A stretch of 64,000 bases of DNA, from NCBI GenBank assembly GCA_044229845.1, contig JBGASG010000010.1:32001-96000 (forward strand), in the 5' to 3' direction. Source of the DNA: Candidatus Obscuribacteraceae bacterium. GTDB lineage: Bacteria > Cyanobacteriota > Vampirovibrionia > Obscuribacterales > Obscuribacteraceae. Below the pieces are notes generated by a model. The model saw only the letters and a program-made list of their open reading frames with translations, did no database searches and had not been told where the DNA came from. Of the stretch, positions 8,930 through 30,281 are shown piece after piece; position 1 is the first letter of the stretch, and each line of letters opens with the position of its first letter. The position numbers were made by a program, and so were the translations under genes.

Positions 8930-9859
8930 TCAGTGCTGCCACTGGGAAAAAAACTTGCCAACCTCAGCAGCCAGTCCGTGCAGACCAGTGCGGATGCGCA
9001 AAGCGACGTTGTTCTTTTTTGCGCGGCACCGCTCGATGCCGGTCAACGCCGATGCCGAATCCGGGTCGTATTCCAGGAGAGTGCGATATTCCGCAATCGC
9101 CCCGTCGAAGTCGCCTCCGAAAAGCTCCAGGTTGCGCGCCAGCCGCAAGCGAGCTTCCGTTTCAAAGGGATTTTTGGTCAGGATGGTTCTCAACACCTGC
9201 CGCGCCCGGTCGGGATGATTCATGCGTTGTTCCAGATCCGCCAGTTCGATCTGCCAGGCGGTTGGATCTTGCGAAAGCGCTATGGCGGTTTCCAAATAAC
9301 GACTGGCCTGGTTGAAGTCGCCTTTGCGCACTTTCACTTCATAACAGAGATGCAGCACCTCCGGATTGGCGGCACCGGTCCCGATCATCGACTGCAACTC
9401 TTTTTCCGCATCGTTGACTTTGTCCGTATCAAGCAAGGCTTCAACGTAAGCCAGCTGTGCGCCCAGGTTGGCAGGGTCGAGACTCTTAGCCCTGATCGCC
9501 GAAGATAAGGCTTCCTTGAAGTCGAGGTTGTCCAGCTGCAGTTGCGAGATGACAACATGAGCTTCCACATTCTGCGGTTGCAGTGCCACCACCCGCTGAA
9601 ACATCTGCAATGCCTGGCGCGGTTTCCCTGAACTGCGCAAAATACTTCCGTACTCGACGAGCAAGGGCACGTCGTTGGGATGCTGCTTGAGCAATTCCAC
9701 CGCTTCCGCCTGCGCCTGATACAGCTTGCCTTCCTTGAACAGCTGGTGCAGTTTCTCAGCAGCAGACGGCGCTGCCAACACTTTCGCTTCCGCAGTCAGC
9801 GACAATGCGACAAACAAGCTGACAAGGGAAGCTGATTGTGCGCGCATGAAAAAAGACAT
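8930..9859 (-). CDS. Secreted TPR protein (degenerate C-terminal DVAxQ-type motif)
   Basis: Signal peptide (LFVALSLTAEA), TPR repeats, C-terminus RCRAKKNNVALRIRTGL. Confidence 0.85.
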   Translation of the reverse strand: MSFFMRAQSASLVSLFVALSLTAEAKVLAAPSAAEKLHQLFKEGKLYQAQAEAVELLKQHPNDVPLLVEYGSILRSSGKPRQALQMFQRVVALQPQNVEAHVVISQLQLDNLDFKEALSSAIRAKSLDPANLGAQLAYVEALLDTDKVNDAEKELQSMIGTGAANPEVLHLCYEVKVRKGDFNQASRYLETAIALSQDPTAWQIELADLEQRMNHPDRARQVLRTILTKNPFETEARLRLARNLELFGGDFDGAIAEYRTLLEYDPDSASALTGIERCRAKKNNVALRIRTGLHGLAAEVGKFFSQWQH

Positions 9860-9907
9860 ATTGATATGGTATCAGACACGTTAAATGTTCCAGTATCATT
9901 CACTTTC

Positions 9908-12361
9908 ATGATCAACAGCGCGTACCCGGCAGACACAGCCCGCTCCGAATCGATCGTCTTGATCGCGGCGCTCGTCCTTTTGTCGGGATTGATCACCAGC
10001 GTCTATATCCTTGGCGTTCATCAAGGAGCGATTCAGGGCCGCCGGCAAAACGCCGTCGAACACGCGGCCCGGATGGCAGCAGAGGAGCTGTCTACCGTCA
10101 CCGTCTCCGACTCCCGTTTTGGCGAAGTCGGTCTTACGGACCGTTTGATCTCTTTGCCCGGGCAGCCGGCTTCTAAAGCGCGCCGCGTCACCGGCATCAA
10201 CACGATGTTTGCCACTTTGCGCATCGACCTTTTGATCGCAGAAAAACTCGGTTTGCGCAGCATCGCCTCGATGGTCTCGGCCGATCTGGAAAAGGCCGAC
10301 GAAGTACGCGAGTCACTGCGCTCCAAGCTGCTGGCAGCCTCCTTCGTCGAAACCAATCCCAACAGCAAAGAAGGTCATGCAATCTGGTCGCGTGTCGGGC
10401 AGATTCTTGAGAAATCCACGTCCAACACAGGCGAAAAACTCACCACTTATAGTGTCAGCCTCGGACATCTCACCAAGCCGATGGTCACCACCACCGTCTC
10501 GCCGTCCTTTGAACCGACATCCAGCAAAGACGGGTTTTATCTGAGCGGCGTGGATATAACGATGCCGCACGGCAAGCCGCTGCGCTTCACGGAAATTCGC
10601 CCGAAAACTACTTTCGTCGACGCCAATCTGTTCACACCAGAACCTCAATACCTGCCACCGACAGTGGTGCGAGTCACGGCCAATTTCGACGTTCCCGCTC
10701 AAGGCAAAACCCCTTCCCGCAAGCTGGTGCGCACCGCCTGCGCAGTGATCGGCGGTGCATCCGAGCCACCGGCTCCGGCCACGTTGCTGGTATCTTTCCC
10801 ATTCGGCGCACCACCGCAATTTACAACCGTGCGCTCGCTGCTGGGCTTCTCCAACTGGACCGGCGACGGCACCTGGTTGCGGGCAGTGGGCGGTCCGGTA
10901 CCGGGCACGGGGCACCTGGTCGCCGACCCTCATGCGACCCAGGAAAATCTTTTACCGCAGCAAGCCATTCAGGTTGCTTTTTACGACTGGCTCAGACAAT
11001 CAGGTCCTACGATCAAGCTGGAACGTGTTCGCGAACTACTGGATGCGCCATGGCCGGTCGCGACCGTCGAGGGCGAAGCGTCGACCCGACAAAATAGCGC
11101 CGTCACCTACGAGACGGGCGCCCGCAGCTATGCCGTAATCAACCAGTCGGAGCCCGGCGGCAGCGGTCAACAGTTGCTCTCCGAAGTCTTCAAGGCCAAG
11201 ATTTCGCAGAAATCCTTTCCGGCTTCGGCGCTGCCCCTCTTTATCGATCAGCAAGGGAACTGCAATTTGCCTGGTCGTCACGGCATGGACAAGAGCTTCG
11301 TGCTCAGCTTCATTCAAGATCTATACGAAACAAACCTGGCCAGCATCGAAACCCACAACATTGCCCGCACCATATTGGACCGCATGAATACTGCCATCGA
11401 GCAGCAACTTCAGAATCTTTCCATCGAACGAGAAGAACTGCACTCCATCGAGCTGCGCCTGGCGCGCCTGAAGAAAGTCAAAGAACATGATGCCGACCCG
11501 CAGCATGCTCTCGAGTTGGAGAAACAGGAGAACTTGCACAAGGCAAAACTGGAGAAAGTAGGGGCGATCGCCGGACTTCTCAACGAACACGAAGCGGTGC
11601 GCGAGCGAGCCCGCCTGGCGCTGCGCAACGCCGATGCCGCGTGGCTATCCACCTGGGATATCGGTAGCAAGTTAAGCCTCTACACACGCGGCGGACTGCA
11701 CCGAGTTGGTTCGCCCTGTTCGGGCTATTTGCTCGGACTGAAGCAGGTATTCACTCCGCAGCCGGTGCCGATTGCGGAAGAAGACATCTACGAAAAGTCC
11801 CCCGATCAACACCAGCCCCCGCAGCAAAGCGCGGCTTTCTGGCTGACCCCCAGTCTGCAGGTGTTGCTGCCGGCCGACGACGGTTTTATCGTCGAGGGTT
11901 TGCCGCTCTCGGAAGTACGCCAGCGGTTTCGCGCTCCGGACACAGCGCCGCCGGCTTTCTATGCCTGGACTTCATCGCAATTGACCAGCGACCAAAAACT
12001 CGAATCGCGCTCGCTGCGGCAATCACCCTTCGAGAATACCGGCATCGAGAAGACACAGTTGCTCTACCTGGCTGCTGATGCCATTCGCACCGGACAAAAT
12101 CCCGAGGTGACGTGGACGCTTTTAATCAGAGACGAAGTAGCATCAAAAGGAGCCGCCGCCGGTGAACCGGTCCGTGGCCACCAGGGGTGGTGCGCGGAGA
12201 ACTCACTCAGTTTCGAGGAATGCCCGGGATTGGCCTGTGAAATTCAGATGCGAGCGCCGCTGCCGCTGCTCCCCGATCTGCCGGCCGGACCAAGCGTGAT
12301 CAGCCCGCGCGGCGCCGAGCGCACAGCTTTGATACCACCGACACCGCTCAGCATGCTCTGA
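9908..12361 (+). CDS. Large protein with TadG-like N-terminus and internal coiled coil
   Basis: N-terminal hydrophobic helix followed by RQNAVEHAARMAAEEL (resembles the Tad LQxAADAAALAAA motif). Coiled coil around 11390-11640. Start uncertain. Confidence 0.6.
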   Translation: MINSAYPADTARSESIVLIAALVLLSGLITSVYILGVHQGAIQGRRQNAVEHAARMAAEELSTVTVSDSRFGEVGLTDRLISLPGQPASKARRVTGINTMFATLRIDLLIAEKLGLRSIASMVSADLEKADEVRESLRSKLLAASFVETNPNSKEGHAIWSRVGQILEKSTSNTGEKLTTYSVSLGHLTKPMVTTTVSPSFEPTSSKDGFYLSGVDITMPHGKPLRFTEIRPKTTFVDANLFTPEPQYLPPTVVRVTANFDVPAQGKTPSRKLVRTACAVIGGASEPPAPATLLVSFPFGAPPQFTTVRSLLGFSNWTGDGTWLRAVGGPVPGTGHLVADPHATQENLLPQQAIQVAFYDWLRQSGPTIKLERVRELLDAPWPVATVEGEASTRQNSAVTYETGARSYAVINQSEPGGSGQQLLSEVFKAKISQKSFPASALPLFIDQQGNCNLPGRHGMDKSFVLSFIQDLYETNLASIETHNIARTILDRMNTAIEQQLQNLSIEREELHSIELRLARLKKVKEHDADPQHALELEKQENLHKAKLEKVGAIAGLLNEHEAVRERARLALRNADAAWLSTWDIGSKLSLYTRGGLHRVGSPCSGYLLGLKQVFTPQPVPIAEEDIYEKSPDQHQPPQQSAAFWLTPSLQVLLPADDGFIVEGLPLSEVRQRFRAPDTAPPAFYAWTSSQLTSDQKLESRSLRQSPFENTGIEKTQLLYLAADAIRTGQNPEVTWTLLIRDEVASKGAAAGEPVRGHQGWCAENSLSFEECPGLACEIQMRAPLPLLPDLPAGPSVISPRGAERTALIPPTPLSML

Positions 12362-12373: not shown

Positions 12374-12859
12374 CTATTTCACCAGTTCCACAGAAGTGAC
12401 CTTCAACACCCGCACCCCGCCTTTAGTAGCCAAATGACCTTTCACTTTCACACGCTTTGCCACAAAAGGCGCCAGCAAATCTTTGCAGCCGGTGTAGGCT
12501 TTGTGCTTGACGCACAAGTAGAGCAGTCCTTTGTCGTCGACGATACCGGGCGTCACACCACCCATTACGCAAGCAAGCGCGCACGATTGATGGTGAGCCC
12601 CGCGTCCATCACCCATCACTTGCGAGGCATAGCACCATGAGTCTACGACTTCGCCGACCAGTTCAACCGGCACCGCCACCGGTGCCAGATGTCCGGAGGC
12701 ACCGCCTGCGGCTTGCTGCCCACCCGGCTGTGCGGCGGGTTTCCCGGTGGTCGGCACCGCCGGTTTCTTCACTGGATCTGCAGCCAACCCTGGTGTGATA
12801 GGCAGGCAGAGGATGACGAGACAGAAGAGCGAAATACACAACTTTGATCGTTGCGGCAT
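12374..12859 (-). CDS. Secreted hypothetical protein with Cys/His cluster
   Basis: Signal peptide, GEVVDSWCY...HHQSCALACVMGG, beta-rich C-terminus. Confidence 0.75.
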   Translation of the reverse strand: MPQRSKLCISLFCLVILCLPITPGLAADPVKKPAVPTTGKPAAQPGGQQAAGGASGHLAPVAVPVELVGEVVDSWCYASQVMGDGRGAHHQSCALACVMGGVTPGIVDDKGLLYLCVKHKAYTGCKDLLAPFVAKRVKVKGHLATKGGVRVLKVTSVELVK

Positions 12860-13419: not shown

Positions 13420-13887
13420 TTAGATGCCCGGGTCGCGACCCAGTTCTTCCTGAGGTCTCGTAGTCGAGAAGGTAAACGGCATATCAGCGCTGAGCCCTGG
13501 AATAGCAACGAAAAAGGGGATGCGCAAGAACGGTTCACAAACCACACGCGTCTGCAGCTGAACAGTCATCGAGTTGTCCGCATGAGTCACCCAGGTCGGG
13601 CCGACATGCGTGACGTCGCTGGAGGCCAGTTTCAAGAAATTGGCAAATGCTGTGCTGGTGAATTCATTGTCCACACGCTGTATCCCCTGACTGGCTTCAG
13701 CAGCGATCGGACGACGCAGGGCTATTTCGCGCAGTTCCGCGTTGTGCAGCAAAAAGCAGAAGCAATAGTTGGCGGCAATGCCGAGCAAGTCGATCAAGGG
13801 AAAGAAGATCAGGAGCAACAGCACAAACAGTGCCGGACCTGTCTCAGTAATGGCGCTGCCCCGACGAGAGCGCAGTCTCAACTTCAT
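13420..13887 (-). CDS. TadE-like pseudopilin
   Basis: RSRRG|SAITETGPALFVLLLLIFFPLIDL (class III-like signal, Glu+5). Confidence 0.8.
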   Translation of the reverse strand: MKLRLRSRRGSAITETGPALFVLLLLIFFPLIDLLGIAANYCFCFLLHNAELREIALRRPIAAEASQGIQRVDNEFTSTAFANFLKLASSDVTHVGPTWVTHADNSMTVQLQTRVVCEPFLRIPFFVAIPGLSADMPFTFSTTRPQEELGRDPGI

Positions 13888-13896: not shown

Positions 13897-15231
13897 TCAG
13901 GCACTGCTGACGGTGCCCTGTTTGCGGCGGCGTAACAGTTGCTTGATTTGCCAGGCTACGTCACGCTTGCTGTTCTCTAGTCTATTGCTAAATCTGAGTG
14001 CCGACAAGACGATTTGGGTGTCCTGGGGCGCCAGATCGAGCGCTTTGCGATAGCACATTGCAGCCGATCCCATGTCGCCGGCCCCCTCAAAGTCACGAGC
14101 CAACCGATACCAGCCTCTGGCCAGTCGCGGATCTTCAAGCAACCCCTTCTCGTAAGTGGCAATTGCTTCCCGCCGCCGCCCCAAACGGTCGAGGACATCG
14201 GCAAGTCCGAAAAAAAGACGAGGTCCCTCAGCCCGCCCGCCCAGGCGACGTCTGGCCATGGCGGCCACATTGGCCGTCTGGGAGGCGTTCAAAAACCGCT
14301 CCAGATAAGCCACACGTTTTTTGACGCGCTCCATGTCTTCTTGCTTGGTGGTCAATGCCATCTGGTAGAGAGCCGGCTCCAGGGCGTCTGCGTAGAAGCC
14401 CTGCGCTTGATAGCTGCGGGACAGCAATTCAGCGATGCCCGGATGGGTGGAGCGCTCTTCATAGGCCTTCTTCAGATAGGGCACCGCCTGACTGGGGTGC
14501 CCCGACAGGAAAAGGGCTTGCCCCTTCATCAAGTTGGCGTAGAAGTGGTCAGGTTTTACTTTCAGGTCATCATCAGCCAGCTTGATAGCGTCCGCATAAC
14601 GGCCTTGATTAATGCGCAACGCGGCGATCATCGACTTGACGCCGGTGACGGCTCGCGGCGAATGCAAAGCCTGATTGAGTTTGTCTTCTGCTTTCTGATT
14701 GCGTCCCTGCGAAAATTCGTAGAGCCCCTGCATATACAGGACTGCCGGATCTTCGGGAAAACGATAAGCCATATAGCCGAGAAGTTTGTATGCGCCGACG
14801 CGATCCTCGGCATCCAATTTGGACTGGAATAGCTCAAGCAAAGCGCCCGGTCTGGTCGGGTCCAGCTCGTCGGCTTTGCGGAACTCGAGTTCAGCCAGAC
14901 TGGCATACCCGGCCATATCGAGGGCTCGCCCGAGGATGAAATGCGCCCGAGCGTTTTTCGGGTCGCGCTCGACCACGTGTCCCAGTTTCTCGATCACTGC
15001 GGTGGTGGCGTTGCCATCCTCGACCTGTTTTTCCAGGGCTGCCAGCTCAGATCCCGGCGCGGCGGCTTCTGTAGCCGCCACCGCATGCGGTGCCAGGGCT
15101 GGTGCAGACCAGGCGCTGGCGGTTTGAAGCGTCACGGATGAGCAGAGGATGAAACCAACTGCCAGAGACAATTTCAAGGTCAGGAGACGATTATTCAGAT
15201 GGAACCGACTTCGGCATGTTGAAGACGACAT
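13897..15231 (-). CDS. Secreted TPR protein with C-terminal DVAWQ motif
   Basis: Signal-like LSLAVGFILCSSVTLQTASA, many TPRs, ends RLENSKRDVAWQIKQLL. Start uncertain. Confidence 0.85.
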   Translation of the reverse strand: MSSSTCRSRFHLNNRLLTLKLSLAVGFILCSSVTLQTASAWSAPALAPHAVAATEAAAPGSELAALEKQVEDGNATTAVIEKLGHVVERDPKNARAHFILGRALDMAGYASLAELEFRKADELDPTRPGALLELFQSKLDAEDRVGAYKLLGYMAYRFPEDPAVLYMQGLYEFSQGRNQKAEDKLNQALHSPRAVTGVKSMIAALRINQGRYADAIKLADDDLKVKPDHFYANLMKGQALFLSGHPSQAVPYLKKAYEERSTHPGIAELLSRSYQAQGFYADALEPALYQMALTTKQEDMERVKKRVAYLERFLNASQTANVAAMARRRLGGRAEGPRLFFGLADVLDRLGRRREAIATYEKGLLEDPRLARGWYRLARDFEGAGDMGSAAMCYRKALDLAPQDTQIVLSALRFSNRLENSKRDVAWQIKQLLRRRKQGTVSSA

Positions 15232-15685
15232 TTAACTGGCAAGCGTACTGAGCGTTGTTGGAGGGGAAGGTGATGATCGTGGTGTTCATGTTTTTGTAGC
15301 GGGCGGTCACCATTCTTTCGGTCGTTTGCCCGACGGTCCAGTGAAAGTTGATCAGCGCTTGCTTGTACCAGCCCAGCACCGCAGCAGCCGCATCGGTGCA
15401 GGCATAGCGCATGGTTATTTCAGCACCGCCATCCTTGCGATAACGCACGTTGCCCCAGAGAAACTGTCCGCCACCAGCCCAGGCCGGGAAGTTGGGCAGA
15501 TCAATGGCTTTTGTCAGTACTTTAAACTCACCGCTGGCCTGCAGCTGATCGATCTGGGTTTTGCCTGCAGTCCGCGGCGCCGGTTGCGTCTGGGTCGGAT
15601 GTTGCTGCTGCGCAGACCCCGGCATTGCCGGCGTCAGCAGCAACACGGTCGCAGTCGCAGTCAGCGTCTGGCGTCTGCTCAACAT
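15191..15685 (-). CDS. Small secreted hypothetical protein (paralog of 30286..30837)
   Basis: ATG 15685 overlaps the end of the upstream gene. Signal peptide, DLPNFP...GQFLWG...YA...VLGWYKQAL...W. Confidence 0.75.
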   Translation of the reverse strand: MLSRRQTLTATATVLLLTPAMPGSAQQQHPTQTQPAPRTAGKTQIDQLQASGEFKVLTKAIDLPNFPAWAGGGQFLWGNVRYRKDGGAEITMRYACTDAAAAVLGWYKQALINFHWTVGQTTERMVTARYKNMNTTIITFPSNNAQYACQLNVVFNMPKSVPSE

Positions 15686-17736
15686 GGGCAGCACCATTGT
15701 CCGCCGCCGCTGGAGCAGTTGCGGAAGCGCAGGACGCCGAGCAGGTTGTTGCTGCCCGAGTGCGGACGCCACTGCGTTCTGTCGAGAGTGGTGGCACCAG
15801 GACCGGCGGGGCAATCCCACGGGTTCGGATAGCCGCCCTCGTTGGGCAGGTTGATCAATCCGCCACCATGGGTGAAGCCTTCCACGTTGGCTTGTCTGGT
15901 TGCATAACCAGGCGTGCCTGGATTCGGGAACGGACCATCGGGAATGACGGAGTTGGGATTGTCGAAGTCGATGTTTTGCGGAACCTGCCAGCCTTGCGGA
16001 TACTGGCTTACCGGTCCCATGGTCAACTGGTGCGTGTTGGGGTTGACGAAGATGATGCGCACTTCGCCGAAAGGCACGCGGCCGTTGGCCAGCAAGGCGT
16101 CGATATCCTGGTCGCGCACCAGCGGATCCATCTGGTGCATGCGCGTGCGCATGTCGGATTGGATGAAGGTGGTGCTGGTGGTCATCTGGTTGAGCAAACC
16201 GCCGAGGGTCGGGTTGGCGTCACCAAACGGAATCTGCGACGGGTTGCTGCGAATGTCGAGCGGGTAGGTCTTCAGTCCCGTGCAGGGATAGTTGCCGAAT
16301 GCCGTGCGGCAGGCAGATCCGCCGAAGTCTACGCCGGCTCTGACTTCCAGAACGAGCGCCTTGAAGCGTTCGATGGCCATCAGGTTGTCCGTCTGTTGCG
16401 GTGGTCCGAAGCGCGACGGCGAGTAGGTGTTGTTGAAGGCCGTCTGCAAGCCGTTGCACGGAGGAGAACCGACGCTCGCCGGCGTGTTGTCGCAGTTGAA
16501 TACCGTGGGGTTGGAGCCGGGTCCGAAGTCATTGACCAGTTGCGTAGCCGAGAAGCTCGATGGTGAGTCAATGAAGTTGCCCTGGCTGAGCCAGTTGGTG
16601 GCTGCCGCTTCGCGACCCGATTGAGTCTGCGGCTGAGCATTGGCGATGTCTTGACGAAGCGCGTTGTAATCGGCGTTTTCCGAAATATATGTGTGTCCGT
16701 TCGACTGAGCGACGTTGACTATGTTCATCAGGGCGACGAACATGTCGGGAGCGCGTCCGGGCGGGCTGGGCAGAGTTTGCACCGGTCCGGAAAGTGACGC
16801 GCCGGCATTGTCTACCAGGATGAAACCGCGAGGGATGGCAGTGCCGTAGTCGAGGTTGAGCGAGCCGACGACGGCGCACGCTCTGGTCAAGATCGAATTG
16901 TTCGTTTGCAGCGTCTCGTTAGCGCGACCGCCTGAACGGAAGGCATTGGGCGGCAGAAGCGGATTGGCGCGAGTGCCGAGTATCGGTGTTTGCGAGACGG
17001 TGGCATGGAAATCATCCAGTGAGACGCCGTGCGGTTGTTCGCCGGGGCGCAGAGGCACTGCGACTGGACGCACCGTGCCGGTGCCGAGGCTGGTGTAGCC
17101 GCGCAGGAAGAGTTTGCCACTCTGGTTGAAAACACTGGAATTGTCGTTGGCGAAATTGAGCCCGTTGGGAATCTGGTTGTTTCTGATGTAGACGTTACTG
17201 GCGGCGTTGCGCTTCATAAACGCATTCTGAGTTTCTCCCTGAACGTCTTGCGTATTGCTATTGCCCAGCATGCGCAGAGCATTCTGCGTCGACACATTCT
17301 GGAAGAAGCCTTTGACGTTGTTGTGTTGCGAGAGGTTCGTAGCGAGCCGGTTGCCGATGCCCGTGTCGCCTTCCAGCATATTGAAAATCGCCTGGGCATT
17401 GGTGCGCGCCTGCGGAGTGCCCTCGGCTTGCGCATTCAGTGCCACCAAGGTCGCTTTGCCGACCAGGCGGTTGAAGGTGAGCAAATTGACTTCGCCGTTG
17501 ACGTCGGTCAGATCACCGAACTCATTCAGTTCGTTGCCGGAAAGCGTAAATCCCGGCGAACGCAAGGCTTGCTTGGCTACGTTGAGGTTGCCGGCATCGG
17601 TGGCTCGTTGCAATTCGGTGCCACCACCGGTAATCATTTGATAGAAGAAGAAAGCGATTCCAAGGAGTACCAGCAGCAATCCGAGCGATGCCACGAAAGC
17701 CAGGGTGCCTCCGATACTTCGACGTCGCGTAGCCAT
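15679..17736 (-). CDS. Large TadG-like pseudopilin / putative pilus-tip adhesin
   Basis: RRRSIG|GTLAFVASLGLLLVLLG, ELQRATDAGNLNVAKQAL. Asn/Gly/Pro/Thr-rich body with several Cys, ends WCCPC. Confidence 0.75.
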   Translation of the reverse strand: MATRRRSIGGTLAFVASLGLLLVLLGIAFFFYQMITGGGTELQRATDAGNLNVAKQALRSPGFTLSGNELNEFGDLTDVNGEVNLLTFNRLVGKATLVALNAQAEGTPQARTNAQAIFNMLEGDTGIGNRLATNLSQHNNVKGFFQNVSTQNALRMLGNSNTQDVQGETQNAFMKRNAASNVYIRNNQIPNGLNFANDNSSVFNQSGKLFLRGYTSLGTGTVRPVAVPLRPGEQPHGVSLDDFHATVSQTPILGTRANPLLPPNAFRSGGRANETLQTNNSILTRACAVVGSLNLDYGTAIPRGFILVDNAGASLSGPVQTLPSPPGRAPDMFVALMNIVNVAQSNGHTYISENADYNALRQDIANAQPQTQSGREAAATNWLSQGNFIDSPSSFSATQLVNDFGPGSNPTVFNCDNTPASVGSPPCNGLQTAFNNTYSPSRFGPPQQTDNLMAIERFKALVLEVRAGVDFGGSACRTAFGNYPCTGLKTYPLDIRSNPSQIPFGDANPTLGGLLNQMTTSTTFIQSDMRTRMHQMDPLVRDQDIDALLANGRVPFGEVRIIFVNPNTHQLTMGPVSQYPQGWQVPQNIDFDNPNSVIPDGPFPNPGTPGYATRQANVEGFTHGGGLINLPNEGGYPNPWDCPAGPGATTLDRTQWRPHSGSNNLLGVLRFRNCSSGGGQWCCPC

Positions 17737-17918
17737 GTAATCGAACCTCAACGAGTAAGAAGGAAAATGAATGAAAGGAAAAGGAAAAGGAGTGTACCGA
17801 ACGAATGAAAGAGCGGACGCGAATCAAGGAAACGCGACCCCAAAGCTGCACACAGTTACCGTTTCGGCTGAAGATTAGCGCGTGATAATCTTGTGTTCTG
17901 GAACATTATCTGCATTTA

Positions 17919-19724: not shown

Positions 19725-20183
19725 TTATTTGGTCTTCGGCAAGATCACTGTCGGCATGTCGGAAATTGCCTTGTCGTCCACATCAGCAAACTTGACGTTT
19801 TCCTCGATTGATTTATCGAAGATTTGTTTGAGCGTCGTCTGCTTCCTGTCGTAAATCACCAGCCCCCAGTAGGGCTTGAAGATAGAAACATCGGCTTTAA
19901 GTACGCCGGGAGAGGTACGCATTCTCTGGGCCACACGGCGCAGACAGGCGACGCAACTGGCTCCAGTGACTCTGAAATCCGCCCGCTGCAGAGCGGCCGG
20001 AGTCGCCTTACCGGTCGGCGTCGCAGCGCTTTGACCGGCAGCTGTGGACTTTGCCGCCTTGGGCGCTGGTTTGCCAGCAGGCGCCTCCGGTTTGGACGCA
20101 GCGGCTGGTAATGCCAGGACCGAAATTGCCATAGCCATTAAAAGTCCAGTTCTCACAAATACCTCATTTCCCGAATGCCGCAC
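19725..20183 (-). CDS. Secreted heavy-metal-associated (HMA) domain protein
   Basis: Signal peptide, FRVTGASCVACLRRV...PGVLKADVS (HMA CxxC). Confidence 0.8.
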   Translation of the reverse strand: MRHSGNEVFVRTGLLMAMAISVLALPAAASKPEAPAGKPAPKAAKSTAAGQSAATPTGKATPAALQRADFRVTGASCVACLRRVAQRMRTSPGVLKADVSIFKPYWGLVIYDRKQTTLKQIFDKSIEENVKFADVDDKAISDMPTVILPKTK

Positions 20184-20368
20184 CCAGTCAATAAAAGTTA
20201 TAACCGGTCCGAGCCGCCCAGCTATTGTGAAATGGCATTAAGTTGATACAATATTAATGTTTCCAGGAGCTCTCTCCCCTGAACTGGGCATAGAGTTCTT
20301 GGGATTCCAAATAGAACTCCCGACCTCACTTTACTAAAGGCCGATTTCCCTTGAGAGGAAATAGAATC

Positions 20369-20812
20369 ATGTTGCGTCGTCGTCGTACGTCTGGTTCCGC
20401 CATTATGGAAACTGGTCCGGCGCTGTATGTGTTTTTGCTTTTGATCTTTTTCCCGATGGTAGATTTGCTTTTTATGGGCGTCGACTTCTGCGGTTCCTGG
20501 TACATGAACCATCTGGTGGTGCGCGAACTGGCTCTGCGCAAAAAATCCGAGTGGCCAAATGCCATCTCGCAAGTCGTCACTCCGTTCACCAACGCCGGAG
20601 TCGGACAGTTCATGCACATAACCGGCAGCTCTCATGTGCCGATCAATGTCGGCCAGCCGACCGACGGTGAGCGCATGAAAGTGCAGTGCGACAGCACCGT
20701 CACCTGTGCGCCGTTTCTGCAATTACCAATTCCCGGTTCTATTCCTGGACTTTCCGGACCGGTGACTTTCAGATTCTCATCCGAAAGACCTCGAGAGAAC
20801 GACTTAGACTGA
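20369..20812 (+). CDS. TadE-like pseudopilin
   Basis: RRRRTSG|SAIMETGPALYVFLLLIFFPMVDL. Paralog of 13420..13887. Confidence 0.8.
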   Translation: MLRRRRTSGSAIMETGPALYVFLLLIFFPMVDLLFMGVDFCGSWYMNHLVVRELALRKKSEWPNAISQVVTPFTNAGVGQFMHITGSSHVPINVGQPTDGERMKVQCDSTVTCAPFLQLPIPGSIPGLSGPVTFRFSSERPRENDLD

Positions 20813-20813: not shown

Positions 20814-21251
20814 ATGAAGACATCAAAACGACTCCGACGCGGACAAAGCATAGTTGAGACAGTGGTTGGTATCATTTTTCTGATCCCAATTGTTCTGTTT
20901 CTGCTCGACGTTTCAGTGCTGGTAATGGCCCAGACCGCCAACGACAACCTGGCGAAAAGCGCCGCCCGCGCCGCCGCCAGCGCTACTCCAGGACCGGGAC
21001 AGACTGGCACCTCGTCCGCCGGACAGGCAGCCGCTCAACGCGTACTCAACAACTTTGCCACCTCTTCGATCATTACATCGAAAACAATGCCGACGTTCGA
21101 TTACGATATGAGTACCGGCAACGTCACCGTCGGCACGCAAATCGTCGTCAGACCGCCGGTCGTCTTCCCTGGATTCAGCCAGTTCAACTTCAACGCCCGC
21201 GCCACAGAACCGATTGTTTCTATTCCACCAACGGCATCTAGCGGCAGCTAA
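20814..21251 (+). CDS. TadE-like pseudopilin
   Basis: RLRRG|QSIVETVVGIIFLIPIVLFLLD...LAKSAARAAA. Confidence 0.85.
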   Translation: MKTSKRLRRGQSIVETVVGIIFLIPIVLFLLDVSVLVMAQTANDNLAKSAARAAASATPGPGQTGTSSAGQAAAQRVLNNFATSSIITSKTMPTFDYDMSTGNVTVGTQIVVRPPVVFPGFSQFNFNARATEPIVSIPPTASSGS

Positions 21252-21256: not shown

Positions 21257-22474
21257 TTGATGCGTTCATTCACCATATATGGTGCCAGACCGATCGCCCT
21301 GGCAACCGTCTGTGTGTGGATGCTTGCCGCAGGTTCGTCCGCTGCGGCGGCGCCAGTGGCGTCCGCCGCAGACATGCAGCAACTGGCAGACGTCGTCAAA
21401 AGCCATCCAGACGATGCGCAGGCTCGTTTGCAGTTGGCGCTGGCACTGGCCAAAAACGGCTTCCGCAGCCTGTCCGCAGATCAATTGCAGGAAGCCGACC
21501 GCATCCAGCCCGGCTTCGTGCGCGAACGATTCCATAGTTTCATGCGGTCCGGACGGCAGTCAGAACAGAGGGACAACTGTAAGTGGATTGTCTTTTACAT
21601 CCTTCGTCAGAACCCCGAAGACGCCGATGCATTGCTGCTTACAGCGACTTCACTCTCCGCCGGGGGACAGGCAGACCTGTCGCGCTCAGTTCTCGAGAAA
21701 GCCATCAGAAATGCACCACGCCATCTCGGGTTGCATGCGGAGTTGGCACGCGTGCTCAACGATCAAAAGCAGTTTGCGCCGGCTTACGCCGCCGCCGCCC
21801 AGGAGCTTGCCATCGACCCAACCAGCGCCCCGGCGCGCTTCGAGTACGCGCGCGCACTGCTGGAACTGGGCAATCAATCACAGTTTGTCAGCGCCACGTT
21901 GCAAGCAGCCTACCAGCAGGATCCTAAGAATCGCGACAAGAGTCTGCTTTTCGCCCGCTGCCTGATCCGGCAGGGGCAATATCAAAAGTGTCTGCCGCCT
22001 TTGCTCTACAACATCTCCGCACTGGCTCCCCCGCAAGAAATAGATGAAACCGACGCACTTCTGGCGACCGTGCTGGACCACCTGCCAGGCAGCTCGATCA
22101 AGTTGCAAGCAGATAAGCTGGCAGCCGGGATACCCGACCCTTTCATGAAAGGCTACTTTCACATGCGCCTGGGAAGCATTTTCGACGGCAAGGCGCAGTA
22201 CGCTCAGGCAAATGAGGAGTATCTGCAAGCCATAGAGACGCATTCGCCATTCGAAGGCAGTGCTTGCTTCCACCTCGCCCACAACCTGGATACAAAATTT
22301 CAGGATCCGCAAAGAGCTCTGCCTTATTACCGCCAAGCCGCCGTCCTCAAACCATACGACAATCAGGTCCAGCGGGTGACCGCACGCACGGAAGACCGCT
22401 GCCGCAACCGTCCCCGCGACGTGGCAGGGCAGTTGAAGTCGTTTTTGTGGCGTAACGTGAACAAAGCCAGGTGA
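21257..22474 (+). CDS. Secreted TPR protein with C-terminal DVAGQ motif
   Basis: Signal peptide, TPRs, ends RCRNRPRDVAGQLKSFL. Confidence 0.85.
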   Translation: MMRSFTIYGARPIALATVCVWMLAAGSSAAAAPVASAADMQQLADVVKSHPDDAQARLQLALALAKNGFRSLSADQLQEADRIQPGFVRERFHSFMRSGRQSEQRDNCKWIVFYILRQNPEDADALLLTATSLSAGGQADLSRSVLEKAIRNAPRHLGLHAELARVLNDQKQFAPAYAAAAQELAIDPTSAPARFEYARALLELGNQSQFVSATLQAAYQQDPKNRDKSLLFARCLIRQGQYQKCLPPLLYNISALAPPQEIDETDALLATVLDHLPGSSIKLQADKLAAGIPDPFMKGYFHMRLGSIFDGKAQYAQANEEYLQAIETHSPFEGSACFHLAHNLDTKFQDPQRALPYYRQAAVLKPYDNQVQRVTARTEDRCRNRPRDVAGQLKSFLWRNVNKAR

Positions 22475-24337: not shown

Positions 24338-27253
24338 ATGTCAAATCAAAAAACTCTGTTGCTCGTCGACGGAAGCTCTCTGGCATTCCGTTCGTTCTTC
24401 GCGCTGCTGACTTCCGGTTTGCGTCGTTCTGACGGACAGCCGACCTGGGCTGTCTACGGATTTTTCAATTCCCTCTTCGACGTTCTCGAACGTTGGACGC
24501 CCGATTGCATTGCTGTGGCATTCGACGTGGCGAAAAAGAAGACATTCCGGCACGAAGAATTTCAGGACTACAAAGCCGGACGGGCGGCTATGCCCGATGA
24601 CCTGTCAGTGCAGTGGCCCGTGATCAAGCAGGGGCTGGAAGCTTTGAAAATTCCCATCTACGAGCTGGAGGGCTACGAAGCGGATGACGTCATCGGCACC
24701 GTCGCCAAGAAATCCATCGACCAGGATTTGCAGGTCTTCATTCTTACCGGCGATCACGATGCGTTCCAACTACTGGACGGCAAAATCCAGGTCCTGATGC
24801 CGAGCACCAAAGAAGGGCTAAAAACATACGGGCCGCAAGAATGTTTCGACAAACTGGGTGTCTGGCCGGATCAAATCACAGACTACAAAGGATTGTGCGG
24901 CGACACCTCCGACAATATTCCCGGAGTGCGGGGCATCGGTCCGAAGACCGCCGTGCAATTGCTGACGCAGTACAAAACTGTAGAAGGCATCTACGAGCAT
25001 CTCAGCGAACTGAAATCTGATGCGATGCGCAAGAAACTCGATGAGGGCAAACAAAGTGCTCTCATGAGCAAGAGCCTGGCCACTATTCATCCGGATGTGC
25101 CTTTCGAACTCGACTTCGAGCATTGCCGGCTGACCATGCCGGAAATCGAAACCGCCACCAGCTTTTTCCGCGACATGGAATTCAACGCCATCCTCAAACG
25201 CCTGCCGAAAATTCTGTCGCGCTTCAACAACGGCGTCACCCCGGACATCGACCCGGCACTTCTGGAGCCGCTCAACAAGGCTCGCCGCAGCCGGCGCCCG
25301 AACACCGAAGAGGTGGAACCAGGGCATTACGATCAAGTTGCACCGGCGGCCGCCACCATTGCCATCCAGGAGCGCCTGCCACTATATACGGTGCAGCCCA
25401 TGGACAAGCCGACGCCGCTTGTAGTGCGCAATACCCAACAACTGAGCGACCTGCTTTCGGAAGTAAGCAGTTGCACGGTGCTCTCCATCGAGTTGGGTCT
25501 GACCAACGCCGCTTCCCTGGAGGGTGACATCGCCGGCATAGCGCTGGCCTGGTCAGCGGCTGCCTCCTACACAAGCGAAAGTCGATTTGCTGCGGACGCC
25601 GAGAAATGGAGCGTGCGTTCGGCATATATTCCCCTGACACACAAGAGCGACGGCGAGCAGGTGGACAGCGGCACTGTTCTCAAAGCGCTGAAACCGATTC
25701 TGGAAAACAAGGCAATCGGCAAAGTAGGCTTCAACTTAAAACACTCTATGAACGCCGCTTCGTTGAAAGGCATCGCAATTGCACCTTTGCTCTTCGACCC
25801 CATGCTGGCCAGCTACATCGTCAACCCTGATGACAAACACAAATTGAAAGAGCAGGCAGAGCGGGCTCTTTCCTACTCGCTGCAAGACATCACAGAGCTC
25901 CTGGGCACAGGCAAGAAACAGATCACCGTCGACTACCTGCCGGTCGACAGCGCGGCGCAAGCCCTGGCAGATGCGGCTCGCGTCAGCCTGGAGTTGACGC
26001 GCTATTACGCGCAGTCGGTCAACACCGATCAAGACTACCTGATGTGGGAGATGGATCTGCCACTGGCGACCGTACTGGCCCGCATGGAACAAAACGGCGT
26101 CAAACTGGACGTGCCGTTTTTCGAAAGCTATGCCGTAGAGTTGGCGGCTGATATCGAGCGACTAGAGAAAGAGATCTTCGAACTTGCCGGTCATGCCTTC
26201 AATATAGGCTCACCGCTGCAACTGCAAAAGGTGCTCTTCGAAGAACTGCAATTGCCCACTAAGGCAAAGACCAAAACCGGATATTCCACCGATGCATCGG
26301 TTCTGGAATCTTTGAAAGAACATGAAATCGTCGCCAAGATTCTGGAATACCGGCAGTTGAGCAAATTGCAGTCCACTTACGTGGTGGCATTGCCCCGCCA
26401 GATTTCATCACGCGACAACAGACTGCACGGCGAATTCAATCAAACAACCACCGCCACCGGTCGCCTTTCTTCCACTAACCCCAATCTGCAAAACATTCCC
26501 ATCCGAACGGAGCGCGGAGGTCGCATCAGGAAAGGTTTCATAGCCAGTGACAGCGATCACCTGCTGGTGTCCGCCGATTATTCGCAGATCGAGTTGCGAC
26601 TCCTGGCACACATGTCCGGCGACGAGAGGTTGATCGAAGCTTTCGGCAACGATGAAGACATTCACTCGCGCACCGCCCGTGACATCTTCGATGTGTCGGA
26701 GGAAAACGCAGTGACAGCCGACATGCGCCGCGTCGGCAAGACGCTCAATTTCGCCCTCATCTATCAGCAAGGACCCTTTGCCACCGCCCAGTCGCTCGGC
26801 ATACCGACGCGTGAAGCGCAAAAGTTTATCGACAAGTACTTCGCCACCTATCCCAAAGTGCGCGCGTTCATGTCGGGCACCATCGCCAGTGCCCGCCAGA
26901 CCGGTTATGTGGAAACATTGTGGGGACGCCGCCGGTACTTCGCTATGATCAACGATCGCAACGACGCGGTTCGCAAAGCTGCCGAACGCGCCGCTTGCAA
27001 CGCACCGCTGCAAGGCAGCGCCGCCGATCTGATCAAACTGGCGATGGTGCGCCTGGAGAAAGACTTCCAACAAGCAAACCTGGATGCCAAATTGATTCTG
27101 CAGGTACACGACGAACTGGTTTTCGATGTTCCGAAAGACCAGCTCGAACCCACAAAAGAAGCGATCAAGCTGGCGATGGCAATGGATCAACCACTGCGAG
27201 TGCCCTTGCGCATCGATGTCGGTTGCGGCAGCAACTGGGGCGACTGCAAGTAG
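24338..27253 (+). CDS. polA: DNA polymerase I
   Basis: 5'-3' exonuclease (DGSSLAFR, YEADD, GDTSDNIPGVRGIGPKTA) and polymerase motifs (TGRLSSTNPNLQNIP, ADYSQIELR, LQVHDEL). Confidence 0.98.
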   Translation: MSNQKTLLLVDGSSLAFRSFFALLTSGLRRSDGQPTWAVYGFFNSLFDVLERWTPDCIAVAFDVAKKKTFRHEEFQDYKAGRAAMPDDLSVQWPVIKQGLEALKIPIYELEGYEADDVIGTVAKKSIDQDLQVFILTGDHDAFQLLDGKIQVLMPSTKEGLKTYGPQECFDKLGVWPDQITDYKGLCGDTSDNIPGVRGIGPKTAVQLLTQYKTVEGIYEHLSELKSDAMRKKLDEGKQSALMSKSLATIHPDVPFELDFEHCRLTMPEIETATSFFRDMEFNAILKRLPKILSRFNNGVTPDIDPALLEPLNKARRSRRPNTEEVEPGHYDQVAPAAATIAIQERLPLYTVQPMDKPTPLVVRNTQQLSDLLSEVSSCTVLSIELGLTNAASLEGDIAGIALAWSAAASYTSESRFAADAEKWSVRSAYIPLTHKSDGEQVDSGTVLKALKPILENKAIGKVGFNLKHSMNAASLKGIAIAPLLFDPMLASYIVNPDDKHKLKEQAERALSYSLQDITELLGTGKKQITVDYLPVDSAAQALADAARVSLELTRYYAQSVNTDQDYLMWEMDLPLATVLARMEQNGVKLDVPFFESYAVELAADIERLEKEIFELAGHAFNIGSPLQLQKVLFEELQLPTKAKTKTGYSTDASVLESLKEHEIVAKILEYRQLSKLQSTYVVALPRQISSRDNRLHGEFNQTTTATGRLSSTNPNLQNIPIRTERGGRIRKGFIASDSDHLLVSADYSQIELRLLAHMSGDERLIEAFGNDEDIHSRTARDIFDVSEENAVTADMRRVGKTLNFALIYQQGPFATAQSLGIPTREAQKFIDKYFATYPKVRAFMSGTIASARQTGYVETLWGRRRYFAMINDRNDAVRKAAERAACNAPLQGSAADLIKLAMVRLEKDFQQANLDAKLILQVHDELVFDVPKDQLEPTKEAIKLAMAMDQPLRVPLRIDVGCGSNWGDCK

Positions 27254-27335
27254 CGGCTCCTCATCCTGGCGGGGAACAGAAACAGCCCGTTCACGTCTTG
27301 CCAGAAGCGAGTTGATTTCTGGATGAGAACAGGCA

Positions 27336-27731
27336 ATGGACGCAAGCTCCTTTTTTTCGACCGCAGGAGAGTTGAAAAGCCTTGTTTCACGTTATTTGGC
27401 GGCAGGAGCTCGCAATACCGCACCGGCGGTGCTGCTTAAGTTGAGCGCGGACGACAACGAACATGTGCGCAGGCGGGTGGCCGAGAATCCCAATACACCG
27501 GGACAGGCGCTGTCTGCGCTGTCACAGGACGACGTAGATGAAGTACGCCTGGCGGTGGCTCTCAATCGCAGAACTCCCCCGCAGGTCCTGCAACAGCTTT
27601 CAGACGACTTAAATCCTGAAGTGCGGTTTGCCATCGCCGCCAACGAGACGATGCCGGACTCCATTCTTCTCGGTCTTTTCCTGGATGCAGATCCCTGGGT
27701 GGCCGACCGGGCAAGCCAGACCTTGAGTTGA
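27336..27731 (+). CDS. Leucine-rich-variant / HEAT-like repeat protein
   Basis: 24-aa repeats LSxDxxxxVRxxVAxNxxTP. Confidence 0.85.
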   Translation: MDASSFFSTAGELKSLVSRYLAAGARNTAPAVLLKLSADDNEHVRRRVAENPNTPGQALSALSQDDVDEVRLAVALNRRTPPQVLQQLSDDLNPEVRFAIAANETMPDSILLGLFLDADPWVADRASQTLS

Positions 27732-27778
27732 TCGACCTTTCTGTATAATTGCCTGCGGAGCACAGATCCGAGGCATGA

Positions 27779-29071
27779 ATGTTGGCAATCAGGTTAATCG
27801 CCGTCGCCGTTCTGGCGTCCATGATTTTTTGTGCCGCAGCTCAGGCGGCGGGGTTGAGCGACGCTGATATCGCGCCTTTCGAGAAGCGTCTCAATTCCAA
27901 ATACCCGCTCAGCGAATCTCAGTTGCAGCAACTGGACGCGCTCATCAAGGCCCATCCGGATGAAGCATATTTGCATTACTTGCTGGCTCGCCATCAGAGG
28001 CGGTTGGGCTATACACAACTCGCCGACGAGACGGTCAATACTGCCCACAGCCGCCCGGACGCCTCCGGTCTCTTCAAAAAACTGATGGAGCAGCAGGTTG
28101 CCAATGCCGAGATCGACCGGGCGCTCAACGTCATGAAATATGCCAATCACTGGCACTCCAACAGCGATATCGGCATTGCCCTCACTGCTTTCTACTTTAA
28201 CGAGGAGGCGCTGGTCGCACCCGCTGACAAACAAGCGGAGTTGAAGCAGAAAGTAACTGTCGAAATTGCCCGCCTGGCATCGCACAAAGAGACCTGGCCG
28301 CCGGGCGTCGGCGGACTGCTGGGACACATAGAGTACACGCAAGGCAATGATGCACGGGCTATCGAATTCGCCGATATCGACTTGCGTAAAGACCAGCACT
28401 TGCAATTGGCCAACCAGGTGAAAGGGTTGGCTCTATTTCAGCAAGGAAACATGAAGGCATCTATACAGCCCCTGTCGGAAGTATTCGCCGCCAATCCCGA
28501 GAACGGGCGCACCACACCATCGTACGCCCAGGCTTTGATTGCCTGCGGACAAGACAAGCAAGCGCTGGCGCCCGCTTTCTATGCACTGACGCAAGCCAGC
28601 GACGCCGCGCAGCTCAAGGTCTTCGAGAAACGCCTGACGCGCCTTCTTTTGCGACTGGACGGACCGTTCGTCGATGCCACCATCAGCGATGTCACTCGCA
28701 GAGCCCGCTGGACGTCGCAGTTTTACACGTTTTATTTCGCACTCGCCGAAGCCTACGAACAGATACATAAGCCGGAGCAGGCACTGCGCTGCTACGCGCT
28801 GGCCTGCTCATACAACAAAGCGCCGACGACCGCGCTGTCCCGCATGGGCAGGCTGCACCAGAACGCCGGACGCTATAAAGAAGCGCACGACTGTTATGCC
28901 CTGTCGGCTCTCTCCAATCAGGAGAATATTTCGGCCAAGTTGGCCTTCAATCGCCTCGCAGACCGCCTCGCCAATCGCGATAATGACGTGGCCTGGCAGC
29001 TGCGCGACTGGCTGCGCCGCACGTTCTGTTTCACTGGAAAACGCGGTGCCCAGTCCTCAACACGTTCTTGA
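27779..29071 (+). CDS. Secreted TPR protein with C-terminal DVAWQ motif
   Basis: Signal peptide (AAAQA), TPRs, RLANRDNDVAWQLRDWL. Confidence 0.85.
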   Translation: MLAIRLIAVAVLASMIFCAAAQAAGLSDADIAPFEKRLNSKYPLSESQLQQLDALIKAHPDEAYLHYLLARHQRRLGYTQLADETVNTAHSRPDASGLFKKLMEQQVANAEIDRALNVMKYANHWHSNSDIGIALTAFYFNEEALVAPADKQAELKQKVTVEIARLASHKETWPPGVGGLLGHIEYTQGNDARAIEFADIDLRKDQHLQLANQVKGLALFQQGNMKASIQPLSEVFAANPENGRTTPSYAQALIACGQDKQALAPAFYALTQASDAAQLKVFEKRLTRLLLRLDGPFVDATISDVTRRARWTSQFYTFYFALAEAYEQIHKPEQALRCYALACSYNKAPTTALSRMGRLHQNAGRYKEAHDCYALSALSNQENISAKLAFNRLADRLANRDNDVAWQLRDWLRRTFCFTGKRGAQSSTRS

Positions 29072-30281
29072 TCTGCCCCGCCACGTCGTTGTCTTGATTT
29101 TGCATGCGTATGTGCAGTCGGTCGCGCATCAAGCACAGCGCCCGATTGTCCGGCTCGAAGAGCAGCGCGTACTCGCAGGCTTGCAGGGCCTGCTGATAAT
29201 GCCCCAGGCGTGCTTCTTCGCGTGCGTACTCCATTTGGGCTTTGACATTGCGCGGCTGATCCTTGACCGCGGCAGTCAGTTCTTCCAGGACTCTTTTGCG
29301 ATCGCCCAGGCGCTGAAACACTCGCGCCAGTCCAATGTGCAAATCGCCGCCCCGATCACCGAAGTGGGCGGCGCGGCTGCCCTCTTCAATTTCACGGCGG
29401 CGCACCGCATCCGGCACCATCCTGTACAGGCGTGCCACAAGTTCCTGACGCTGCACATCTTCAGGTTTGATGGTCAGGTAGTAGAGAGATGTCTTGAACG
29501 CATCTTCCTTCATGCCCAGAGCCATATAGGTTCTGGTCAAATCGCCGGCCGCGCCGCGCTCGTAAGGACGGTTGAAGAACGCCTTCTGCAACGGACGTAA
29601 TGCTTCGGCATAACGGCGCAGGTGATAGAGACAACGCCCGGTAAGAGCTTGGAACTCGGGATCGCGCGGATCAATTGCGGCATCGGCTTCCGCATACCTC
29701 AGCGCTTCTGCATATTTCCCTTCGACCAGCAGTTGCCAGCCGCGTACTCCGTTGATGCCCTTCAGCCTCTGATGGTGCGCCACCGCTTGCAGGTACCAGG
29801 ACCAGCCATTTTCGACAGTCCCCCAGCGGGCTTTCAAAATCTCTTCCAGATTTTTGAGAGAGGGATCCTCCGGAAAGTTGGTGCTGATTTCCAGATACTG
29901 CTTCATTGCCAGTTCCAGATCGCCACTATTCATAGTGGCATGAAACTTCTCCAGACGGGCTTGCGCCGTGGCGACATCCAGGGCTTTAGCCGATCGATAG
30001 GTGTCGGTCGCCAGTTCGAACATGCCGGCGTTCTGCAAAGCCTGAGCGAGAACGAAACGAGCCCTGGCGCTTTGCGGCTGCTGGTCGACGAGTTGGCGGG
30101 CCTGATCTAATAACACGGGCGCAGGCTGTCCACCGCCCTTATCCAGCGTCTGCTCGAGCGCCTGCATTTCAACGTTTTTTTGCGCTTCCGCCTGAGCGCC
30201 CAAAGACGGCACAAATCCCAAGACCTGAATAAGCTGGAAAGCCAGGCAGACAGGCAGAACCGTTGCGACCTTGCGCGACAT
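29031..30281 (-). CDS. Secreted TPR protein with C-terminal DVAGQ motif
   Basis: Signal peptide, TPRs, RMQNQDNDVAGQIKNVL. Confidence 0.85.
   Translation of the reverse strand: MSRKVATVLPVCLAFQLIQVLGFVPSLGAQAEAQKNVEMQALEQTLDKGGGQPAPVLLDQARQLVDQQPQSARARFVLAQALQNAGMFELATDTYRSAKALDVATAQARLEKFHATMNSGDLELAMKQYLEISTNFPEDPSLKNLEEILKARWGTVENGWSWYLQAVAHHQRLKGINGVRGWQLLVEGKYAEALRYAEADAAIDPRDPEFQALTGRCLYHLRRYAEALRPLQKAFFNRPYERGAAGDLTRTYMALGMKEDAFKTSLYYLTIKPEDVQRQELVARLYRMVPDAVRRREIEEGSRAAHFGDRGGDLHIGLARVFQRLGDRKRVLEELTAAVKDQPRNVKAQMEYAREEARLGHYQQALQACEYALLFEPDNRALCLMRDRLHIRMQNQDNDVAGQIKNVLRTGHRVFQ

What the first reader, a model, noticed from the sequence alone, without database searches (positions are those of the whole stretch)
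8930..30281. Conserved C-terminal tag on five otherwise divergent secreted TPR proteins
Seen: RLENSKRDVAWQIKQLL (~13933-13983), RCRNRPRDVAGQLKSFL (~22397-22447), RLANRDNDVAWQLRDWL (~28964-29014), RMQNQDNDVAGQIKNVL (~29057-29107) and degenerate RCRAKKNNVALRIRTGL (~8982-9032). All sit near the C-terminus of proteins with N-terminal signal peptides, and the four full motifs are followed by basic residues. Four of the five genes belong to or adjoin a Tad-like gene cluster, and the fifth (27779..29071) converges on one. The other TPR proteins in the window lack the tag. Inference: it may be an unrecognised sorting, membrane-docking (amphipathic helix) or partner-binding signal that defines a pilus-associated TPR family.
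Basis: partly seen in the sequence, partly recalled or inferred. Interest (0 to 1): 0.8.

Follow-up and report, generated by a model that had tools for sequence, protein, structure and literature searches.

The report
Shared tail on pilus-linked TPR proteins
Five repeat-scaffold (TPR) proteins with predicted export signals end in the same short conserved tail; across one order of non-photosynthetic cyanobacterial relatives, and none of the other genomes searched, their genes sit beside pilin-like genes, so the tail is likely a docking handle for an undescribed accessory of Tad pili.

Summary
The five motifs are real (three coordinates exact, two off by one base) and occur on no other TPR gene of the genome. 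They are not a portable tag on unrelated proteins. Four carriers are old paralogues (~420 aa, 21-29% identical); the fifth belongs to a separate ~320-aa family that shares the last TPR repeat and tail. Both families are confined to one order (homologues are labelled Obscuribacterales/Melainabacteria). The tail is the conservation peak in three alignments and was found on no unrelated protein among 1.84 billion representatives. AlphaFold2 reads it as capping helix, Asp N-cap, then an extra Trp/basic helix. 39 of 42 long-family loci in relatives lie within 3 kb of TadE/TadG-like pilin genes, against 6 of 121 other TPR genes here. A large TadG-like family has the same range and is missing together with both TPR families in one 98%-complete genome. 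Best reading (0.4): exported TPR scaffolds that use the terminal helix to dock at Tad minor-pilin (tip) modules. Membrane anchor, plain structural cap and export signal remain open; no partner was demonstrated. Not TadD.

The parts
13897..15231 (-). Long-family TPR protein, 444 aa; tail motif at 13933-13983
21257..22474 (+). Long-family TPR protein, 405 aa; tail motif at 22397-22447; directly after the TadE-like pair
27779..29071 (+). Long-family TPR protein, 430 aa; tail motif at 28964-29014; 3' end overlaps the next gene by 41 bp
29031..30281 (-). Long-family TPR protein, 416 aa; tail motif at 29058-29108
8930..9859 (-). Short-family TPR protein, 309 aa; variant tail motif at 8981-9031
15679..17751 (-). 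Large TadG-like pilin candidate, 690 aa (basic residues, invariant Gly, long hydrophobic helix, then alpha/beta head); first gene of a TadG-like > small exported protein > TPR run
   Evidence: no Pfam or PDB match
30864..33215 (-). Second large TadG-like pilin candidate, 783 aa, same gene order
15191..15820 (-). Small exported protein (X family) between TadG-like and TPR genes; true start probably downstream of the first start codon
30286..30837 (-). Small exported protein (X family), 183 aa; Atlas lead to AF_1845 START-like clusters (score 0.92, family on 46-62% of members)
20351..20812 (+). TadE/F-like minor pilin candidate, 153 aa (invariant Gly and Glu five residues later)
   Evidence: no TadE Pfam match
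20814..21251 (+). TadE-like minor pilin candidate, 145 aa
   Evidence: Pfam TadE E 0.0014, below cut-off
13420..13887 (-). TadE/F-like minor pilin candidate, 155 aa, 10 bp after the 444-aa TPR gene
9836..12361 (+). 841-aa protein distantly like the TadG-type genes but without a clear prepilin site; divergent from and overlapping the short-family TPR gene

Best explanation
The tail is the conserved end of two order-specific families of TPR scaffold proteins, predicted to be exported, whose genes travel with Tad minor-pilin-like genes, and its last helix is likely a docking handle that binds a shared protein partner at the site where Tad pilus tips are assembled. Shown: motif, family limits, conservation peak, gene neighbourhood, shared phyletic range. 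Predicted: the first half (RLxxRL in the long family, GxERC in the short) is the TPR capping helix; the Asp begins a further helix. Inferred: Sec export with a cleaved signal; the cap is fixed to the last repeat (conserved Glu and Arg residues); the extra helix offers a hydrophobic stripe (positions +1, +5, +8/9) with conserved Ala, Trp and Lys to a partner common to all paralogues; each paralogue's variable TPR groove would serve its own pilin module as a chaperone or adaptor. The partner is not identified.
For: Peak conservation in three alignments: 0.405 against mean 0.24 (26 long), 0.379 against 0.235 (40 long), 0.52 against 0.32 (29 short). The conserved residues are Arg, Asp, Trp and Lys, not the Ala/Leu/Gly of TPR packing. 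The model has helix 405-420, a turn with Asp424, and helix 425-439 beyond the cap. Two families of different length keep the same 66-column end (hhalign 99.0%; tail alone 94.2%). Neighbourhood: 39 of 41 intact long-family loci within 3 kb of TadE/TadG-like genes (39 of 42 with one split gene), against 6 of 121 other TPR genes and 2.3% of the genome, in at least two arrangements spread over the tree. Range: tail in 66 of 72 + 2 of 2 genomes of the order; large TadG-like family in 71 of 72 + 2 of 2 and 0 of 176 outside. G017 (98% complete) has no match for the long family, the short family or the TadG-like family but keeps secretins. The genome has Tad-type secretins, ATPases and Flp-like genes.
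Against: The margin over the last TPR repeat is small in the larger set (0.379 against 0.346), so the conserved unit is a ~65-residue end module and much of it may be structural. The tail is cut or degenerate in 4 of 41 long-family proteins and in both g38 genomes, most still beside pilin-like genes. Three loci (L068, L098, split L081) have no pilin-like gene by my profiles. Other pilin-like clusters of this genome have no tagged TPR gene. The pilin labels rest on my own iterated profiles and motifs: Pfam TadE is matched below cut-off by 11 of 30 members of one subfamily, and not at all by the other or by the TadG-like family. Neighbourhood is inherited: the short family sits beside purA in 27 of 30 loci and beside the 841-aa type gene in 24 of 30. 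60 of 176 genomes outside the order have the RcpA-type domain without the tail, so Tad pili do not need it in general.
Confidence: 0.4

Rival explanations
1. In-plane membrane anchor: after signal cleavage the last helix lies on the periplasmic face of a membrane and keeps the TPR scaffold beside the Tad machine, working like the C-terminal helix of E. coli PBP5.
For: Tails are Trp-rich (9.8% against 0.7% in the body, 50 long; 4.1% against 0.6%, 29 short), basic and poor in acids; the short family keeps hydrophobic residues at +1, +5, +9, +13 and +16 (85-100%); only 1 of 50 long proteins has a lipobox-like string. PBP5 precedent: cleaved signal plus an 18-residue amphipathic C-terminal anchor (PMC2909392, passages).
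Against: Several long members stop two or three residues after position +9, too short for a PBP5-type anchor. The lipid-binding discriminant (formula and scale recalled, not from a call) exceeds 1.34 in only 13% of 23 long and 23% of 26 short tails; median hydrophobic moment 0.42 and 0.38 is under the 90th percentile of body helices. Anchors seldom keep exact residues such as Asp, Ala, Trp, Lys.
Confidence: 0.25
2. Plain structural cap: the motif is the folding cap of an old paralogue family; the extra helix packs back on the last repeat and binds nothing else. The proteins may still serve the pilus through their TPR groove.
For: First half is the capping helix; it always comes with the same last repeat, whose conservation is close behind; it is found on no unrelated protein; it decays in some lineages.
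Against: The 121 other TPR proteins of the genome end without it; an ordinary cap needs one helix, not two; two families that differ along their length kept this end as their best-conserved part.
Confidence: 0.25
3. Export or loading signal: the tail is recognised by the Tad pilus tip and the TPR proteins are carried out of the cell as cargo or tip-bound adhesins, as TcpF docks on the minor pilin TcpB.
For: C-terminal position, one shared motif on several variable paralogues, each gene next to a tip-like module. Precedent for minor pilins docking cargo is stated in PMC12075869 (passage).
Against: No enzyme, toxin or adhesin domain on any carrier; no unrelated cargo carries the motif; the motif is continuous with the fold.
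Confidence: 0.1

Closest known systems
TadD/CpaO pilotin (Tad secretin chaperone; PMC10499894 passages and section 10; PMC13170226 passages)
   Same: Exported TPR protein serving a Tad system
   Different: TadD is a lipoprotein with five TPRs (11 helices) that binds the RcpA C-terminus. These proteins lack a lipobox (1 of 50), the long model has about 22 helices after the signal region, there are up to five paralogues, and they lie beside minor-pilin-like genes, not the secretins.
Myxococcus Kil (Tad) tip modules KilLMN (PMC12075869, passages)
   Same: Several dispersed clusters of two small and one large minor pilin, apart from the core machinery
   Different: The words TPR and tetratricopeptide do not occur in that paper's main text; the large pilin-like family here is order-specific with no Pfam or PDB match; predation is not shown here.
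E. coli PBP5 C-terminal amphipathic anchor (PMC2909392, passages)
   Same: Cleaved signal peptide plus a C-terminal amphipathic helix
   Different: Unrelated protein; the tail here keeps specific residues and is often shorter than 18 residues.
Portable C-terminal sorting tags such as PEP-CTERM, GlyGly-CTERM, T9SS CTD (features recalled, not from a call)
   Same: Short conserved C-terminal motif followed by basic residues on exported proteins
   Different: No transmembrane segment after the motif and no unrelated carriers; restricted to two homologous TPR families.

Membership tests
TadD/CpaO pilotin | N-terminal lipobox cysteine | tested here: not met
   Lipobox-like string in 1 of 50 long proteins; none seen in the window's five N-termini
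TadD/CpaO pilotin | Five TPR repeats, 11 helices | tested here: not met
   Model of the 444-aa protein lists 23 helices, one in the signal region; TadD figure from PMC10499894 section 10
TadD/CpaO pilotin | Encoded with the core tad genes or secretin | tested here: not met
   Secretins on C1, ATPases on C19 and C22; carriers on C15
TadD/CpaO pilotin | Binds the secretin C-terminus | not tested
Portable C-terminal sorting tag | Found on unrelated proteins | tested here: not met
   78 of 81 hits among 1.84 billion representatives are C-terminal and long-family-like; 3 are repetitive proteins with partial matches
Portable C-terminal sorting tag | Motif followed by a transmembrane helix and basic tail | tested here: not met
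   Amphipathic, charged tail of 11-43 residues; a hydrophobic 19-mer past residue 60 in only 2 of 48 proteins
Portable C-terminal sorting tag | Cognate processing enzyme | not tested
   No search made
TPR superfamily | Tandem helical repeats matching TPR profiles | tested here: met
   Pfam TPR matches; all-helical model, pLDDT 89.6; best PDB matches are TPR solenoids
Tad minor pilins (neighbouring genes) | Basic leader, Gly cleavage site, Glu five residues later, hydrophobic helix | tested here: met
   Invariant G15/E20 in A6, invariant E15 in A5, A5-A6 homology 98.3%; the large family has the invariant Gly and long helix but no such Glu
Tad minor pilins (neighbouring genes) | Match to TadE/TadG family profile or pilin fold | tested here: inconclusive
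   TadE below cut-off in 11 of 30; none for A6 or A4; no Foldseek match, best VIA Z 6.4 to unrelated alpha/beta folds
In-plane amphipathic membrane anchor | About 18-residue amphipathic basic helix that binds lipids | tested here: inconclusive
   Pattern fits the short family, partly the long; discriminant mostly in the doubtful range; binding not testable here

The most novel reading that the evidence does not exclude
The tail is a loading signal for swappable Tad pilus tips: each tip module of these bacteria carries its own TPR protein, all docked through the same C-terminal helix, and the pilus delivers or displays them, making the Obscuribacterales Tad system a modular secretion or contact device comparable to the Myxococcus Kil tips.
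Probability: 0.12. Interest if true: 0.8.

Novelty: new variant of a known kind. Interest (0 to 1): 0.5.

Why it matters
Obscuribacterales are common in sludge and soil and poorly characterised; five literature searches pairing their names with Tad/pilus terms returned one paper, on termite-gut Melainabacteria (listing only). The finding exposes an order-wide elaboration of the Tad pilus: dispersed tip-like pilin modules with an unknown large pilin family, a small exported protein and two TPR families united by one tail. A 32-residue profile now marks these modules in any genome, and the tail gives one defined element to mutate when asking how multiple Tad tips are assembled and chosen, a question left open in the Myxococcus work.

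Tried and rejected
Complex prediction of the 405-aa TPR protein with the TadE-like pair and the N-terminal part of the 690-aa protein gave no verdict (score 0.00); it is no evidence either way. Fold searches of the TadG-like model found nothing clear; the TPR model matched only generic solenoids; the Atlas returned generic TPR clusters for the tail region. The long-family tail profile does not find the fifth protein at E 10; its link rests on the short-family profile (the 405-aa paralogue ranks second of 26,420 ORFs, E 0.0056) and on profile-profile comparison. Recent duplication or gene conversion rejected: 18-31 of 51 bases shared between tails, 2 of 6 to 7 of 9 codons identical at shared residues, long branches (quick tree only, the careful search did not finish). 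The in-genome Fisher p of 1.9e-6 is not relied on because the five genes are one cluster. Genus g22 lacked the PF13629 match but has secretins. Promoter and terminator scans were at chance level. Sludge and bioreactor metatranscriptome contigs cover pieces of the pilin-like genes and little of the TPR genes; contigs cannot rank expression, so nothing is concluded. Named-genome locus scans could not be run with the alignments. Three look-ups of earlier findings returned nothing.
Full report
OBSERVATION. A six-frame scan finds the five peptides in the five ORFs named. Three coordinates are exact; the 416-aa and 309-aa copies lie at 29058-29108 and 8981-9031. A loose pattern over 26,420 genome ORFs gives 13 hits; the five on TPR genes are all in this window. 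Profiles built without the window's sequences rank the four long proteins first (E 8.7e-11 to 0.0055, next 1.5) and the short protein first (5.5e-15). None of the other 121 TPR-like ORFs carries it.

WHAT CARRIES IT. The four proteins of 405-444 aa align end to end at 21-29% identity: they are paralogues. A 32-column tail profile (A3) matches 66 of 72 genomes of the window's family and 2 of 2 of the sister family; outside the order 6 of 176 genomes give weak partial matches (E 0.0016-0.05), four in frames under 36 residues. A phylum sample gave 0 of 200 (76 of these are from the same class). Among 1.84 billion representatives it finds 81 proteins; 78 have the match at the C-terminus and 3 are repetitive proteins with partial matches. 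A profile of the family body without the tail scores 77 of the 78 (two short fragments only weakly, 9.8 and 11.5 bits); the row for P0081 was cut from view. Source labels on homologues read Candidatus Obscuribacterales or Melainabacteria, with two cyanobacterial genus labels, and name them only as TPR or hypothetical proteins. The 309-aa protein belongs to a second, single-copy family (71 of 87 genomes of the family, 0 of 3 of the sister family) with consensus end GxERCxxKxND[LI]AxxxK. Its last repeat and tail align with the long family over 66 columns (99.0%), the tail alone over 21 (94.2%), although the long profile alone misses it. So the fifth motif is a true relative, and the conserved unit is last repeat plus tail.

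CONSERVATION. Twenty-column windows peak on the tail: 0.405 against a mean of 0.24 in 26 long proteins chosen by a full-length profile; 0.379 against 0.235 in 40 long proteins partly chosen by the tail search, with the last repeat next at 0.346; 0.52 against 0.32 in 29 short proteins. In 50 long representatives the core is R(-11) 82%, L 86%, R(-7) 92%, D(0) 96%, A(+2) 84%, W(+3) 88%, K(+6) 82%, D(+7) 84%. It is not universal: 32 of 41 match a strict pattern, five of the rest are near matches, four are cut or degenerate, and both g38 genomes have degenerate tails. Tail DNA shows no sign of recent copying.

STRUCTURE. AlphaFold2 on 26 sequences (pLDDT 89.6) gives an all-helical solenoid ending in helix 405-420, a four-residue turn whose last residue is Asp424, and helix 425-439. 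The tail is rich in Trp and basic residues, moderately amphipathic, and extends to about 18 residues in the short family.

NEIGHBOURHOOD. I fetched 40 regions of up to 20 kb around long-family hits, chosen by me across genera, not all hits, and labelled genes with profiles iterated from this genome's own genes. Of 41 intact long-family genes, 37 lie within 1 kb and 39 within 3 kb of a TadE- or TadG-like gene; one split gene (L081), dropped by the length filter, has none, giving 39 of 42. In this genome 6 of 121 other TPR genes and 2.3% of all bases are that close. Two layouts recur: large TadG-like gene > small exported X gene > TPR gene (twice in the window), and a pair of TadE-like genes divergent from the TPR gene (here the pair precedes it on the same strand). 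The layouts are interleaved on a quick tree, so the link survived rearrangement, but kin are not independent. The short family sits beside the 841-aa TadG-type gene in 24 of 30 loci and beside purA in 27 of 30, so its link could be inherited synteny alone. The large TadG-like family occurs in 71 of 72 + 2 of 2 genomes of the order and 0 of 176 outside. The one exception, G017 (98% complete), also has no match for either TPR family and only weak TadE-type matches, yet keeps secretins: a single joint loss. RcpA-type domains occur in 60 of 176 genomes outside the order without the tail.

THE PILUS. The genome has two secretins with the RcpA/CpaC N-domain on C1, assembly ATPases on C19 and C22 flanked by genes I read by eye as cpaB, cpaE, tadB, tadC and a prepilin peptidase, three weak Flp matches on C18 and 27 pilin-like genes in dispersed clusters. 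The small pilins show the Gly/Glu prepilin pattern and are homologous to each other; Pfam support is below cut-off or absent. The large family has a 59-residue N-terminal helix and an alpha/beta head but no structural match. This resembles the multiple tip clusters of the Myxococcus Kil system (PMC12075869, passages).

MECHANISM. Most likely (0.4) the proteins are exported TPR scaffolds that assist Tad tip modules and the extra helix docks on a partner shared by all of them; specific polar and aromatic residues kept by two families argue for a defined contact. A PBP5-like membrane anchor (0.25; PMC2909392, passages), a plain cap (0.25) and an export signal (0.1) remain. They are not TadD (PMC10499894, passages and section 10; PMC13170226, passages): no lipobox, about twice the helices, other location. 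No TPR lipoprotein gene was evident next to either secretin (by eye), so a pilotin-like role is not excluded.

LITERATURE. Searches for Obscuribacterales+pili+Tad, Melainabacteria+tight adherence+pili, Vampirovibrionia+Tad+pilin and Melainabacteria+Flp pilus returned no paper; Obscuribacterales+pilus returned one (PMC5877343, listing only). A Bdellovibrio preprint (10.64898/2026.07.08.737194, passages) notes TPR genes near dispersed tad genes without describing such a tail. The library lacks most subscription journals and I read no supplements, so a mention elsewhere is possible. No family-specific Pfam or NCBIfam model was matched.

VERDICT. Real, old, order-restricted and tied to Tad-like pilin genes; a family end-module rather than a portable tag; partner unknown. 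New variant of a known kind, interest 0.5.

Noticed in passing
G000:C1:213931-215865 and C1:227382-229748: The two RcpA-type secretins (644 and 788 aa) end in a near-identical 25-residue tail, a candidate pilotin-binding segment; no TPR lipoprotein gene is evident beside either.
   Followed up: no
G000:C21:72270-121614: Five further TadG-like genes, with a different family of 770-880-aa TPR genes next to several of them, sharing their own C-terminal pattern.
   Followed up: no
window 2265-2834 (-): A lone TadE/F-like gene upstream of the finding, missed by Pfam.
   Followed up: partly
window 29031-29071: Two tagged TPR genes converge and overlap by 41 bp, their tails 43 bp apart on opposite strands, without notable DNA similarity (31 of 51 bases).
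   Followed up: yes
window 15679-17751 and 30864-33215: The large pilin-like family is order-wide, multi-copy, often ends in a Cys-rich motif and has no Pfam or PDB match; its middle domain was barely tested.
   Followed up: partly
window 19725-20183 and 12374-12859: An exported heavy-metal-associated-domain protein and a 161-aa exported protein recur beside the modules in many relatives.
   Followed up: no
L081:8957-10407: A long-family gene split into two ORFs, away from pilin-like genes by my profiles.
   Followed up: partly
window 52090-53505 (+) and 41190-45563 (-): A caspase-like (EACC1-associated type) gene after clpB, and a 1457-aa ORF with no NCBIfam match.
   Followed up: no
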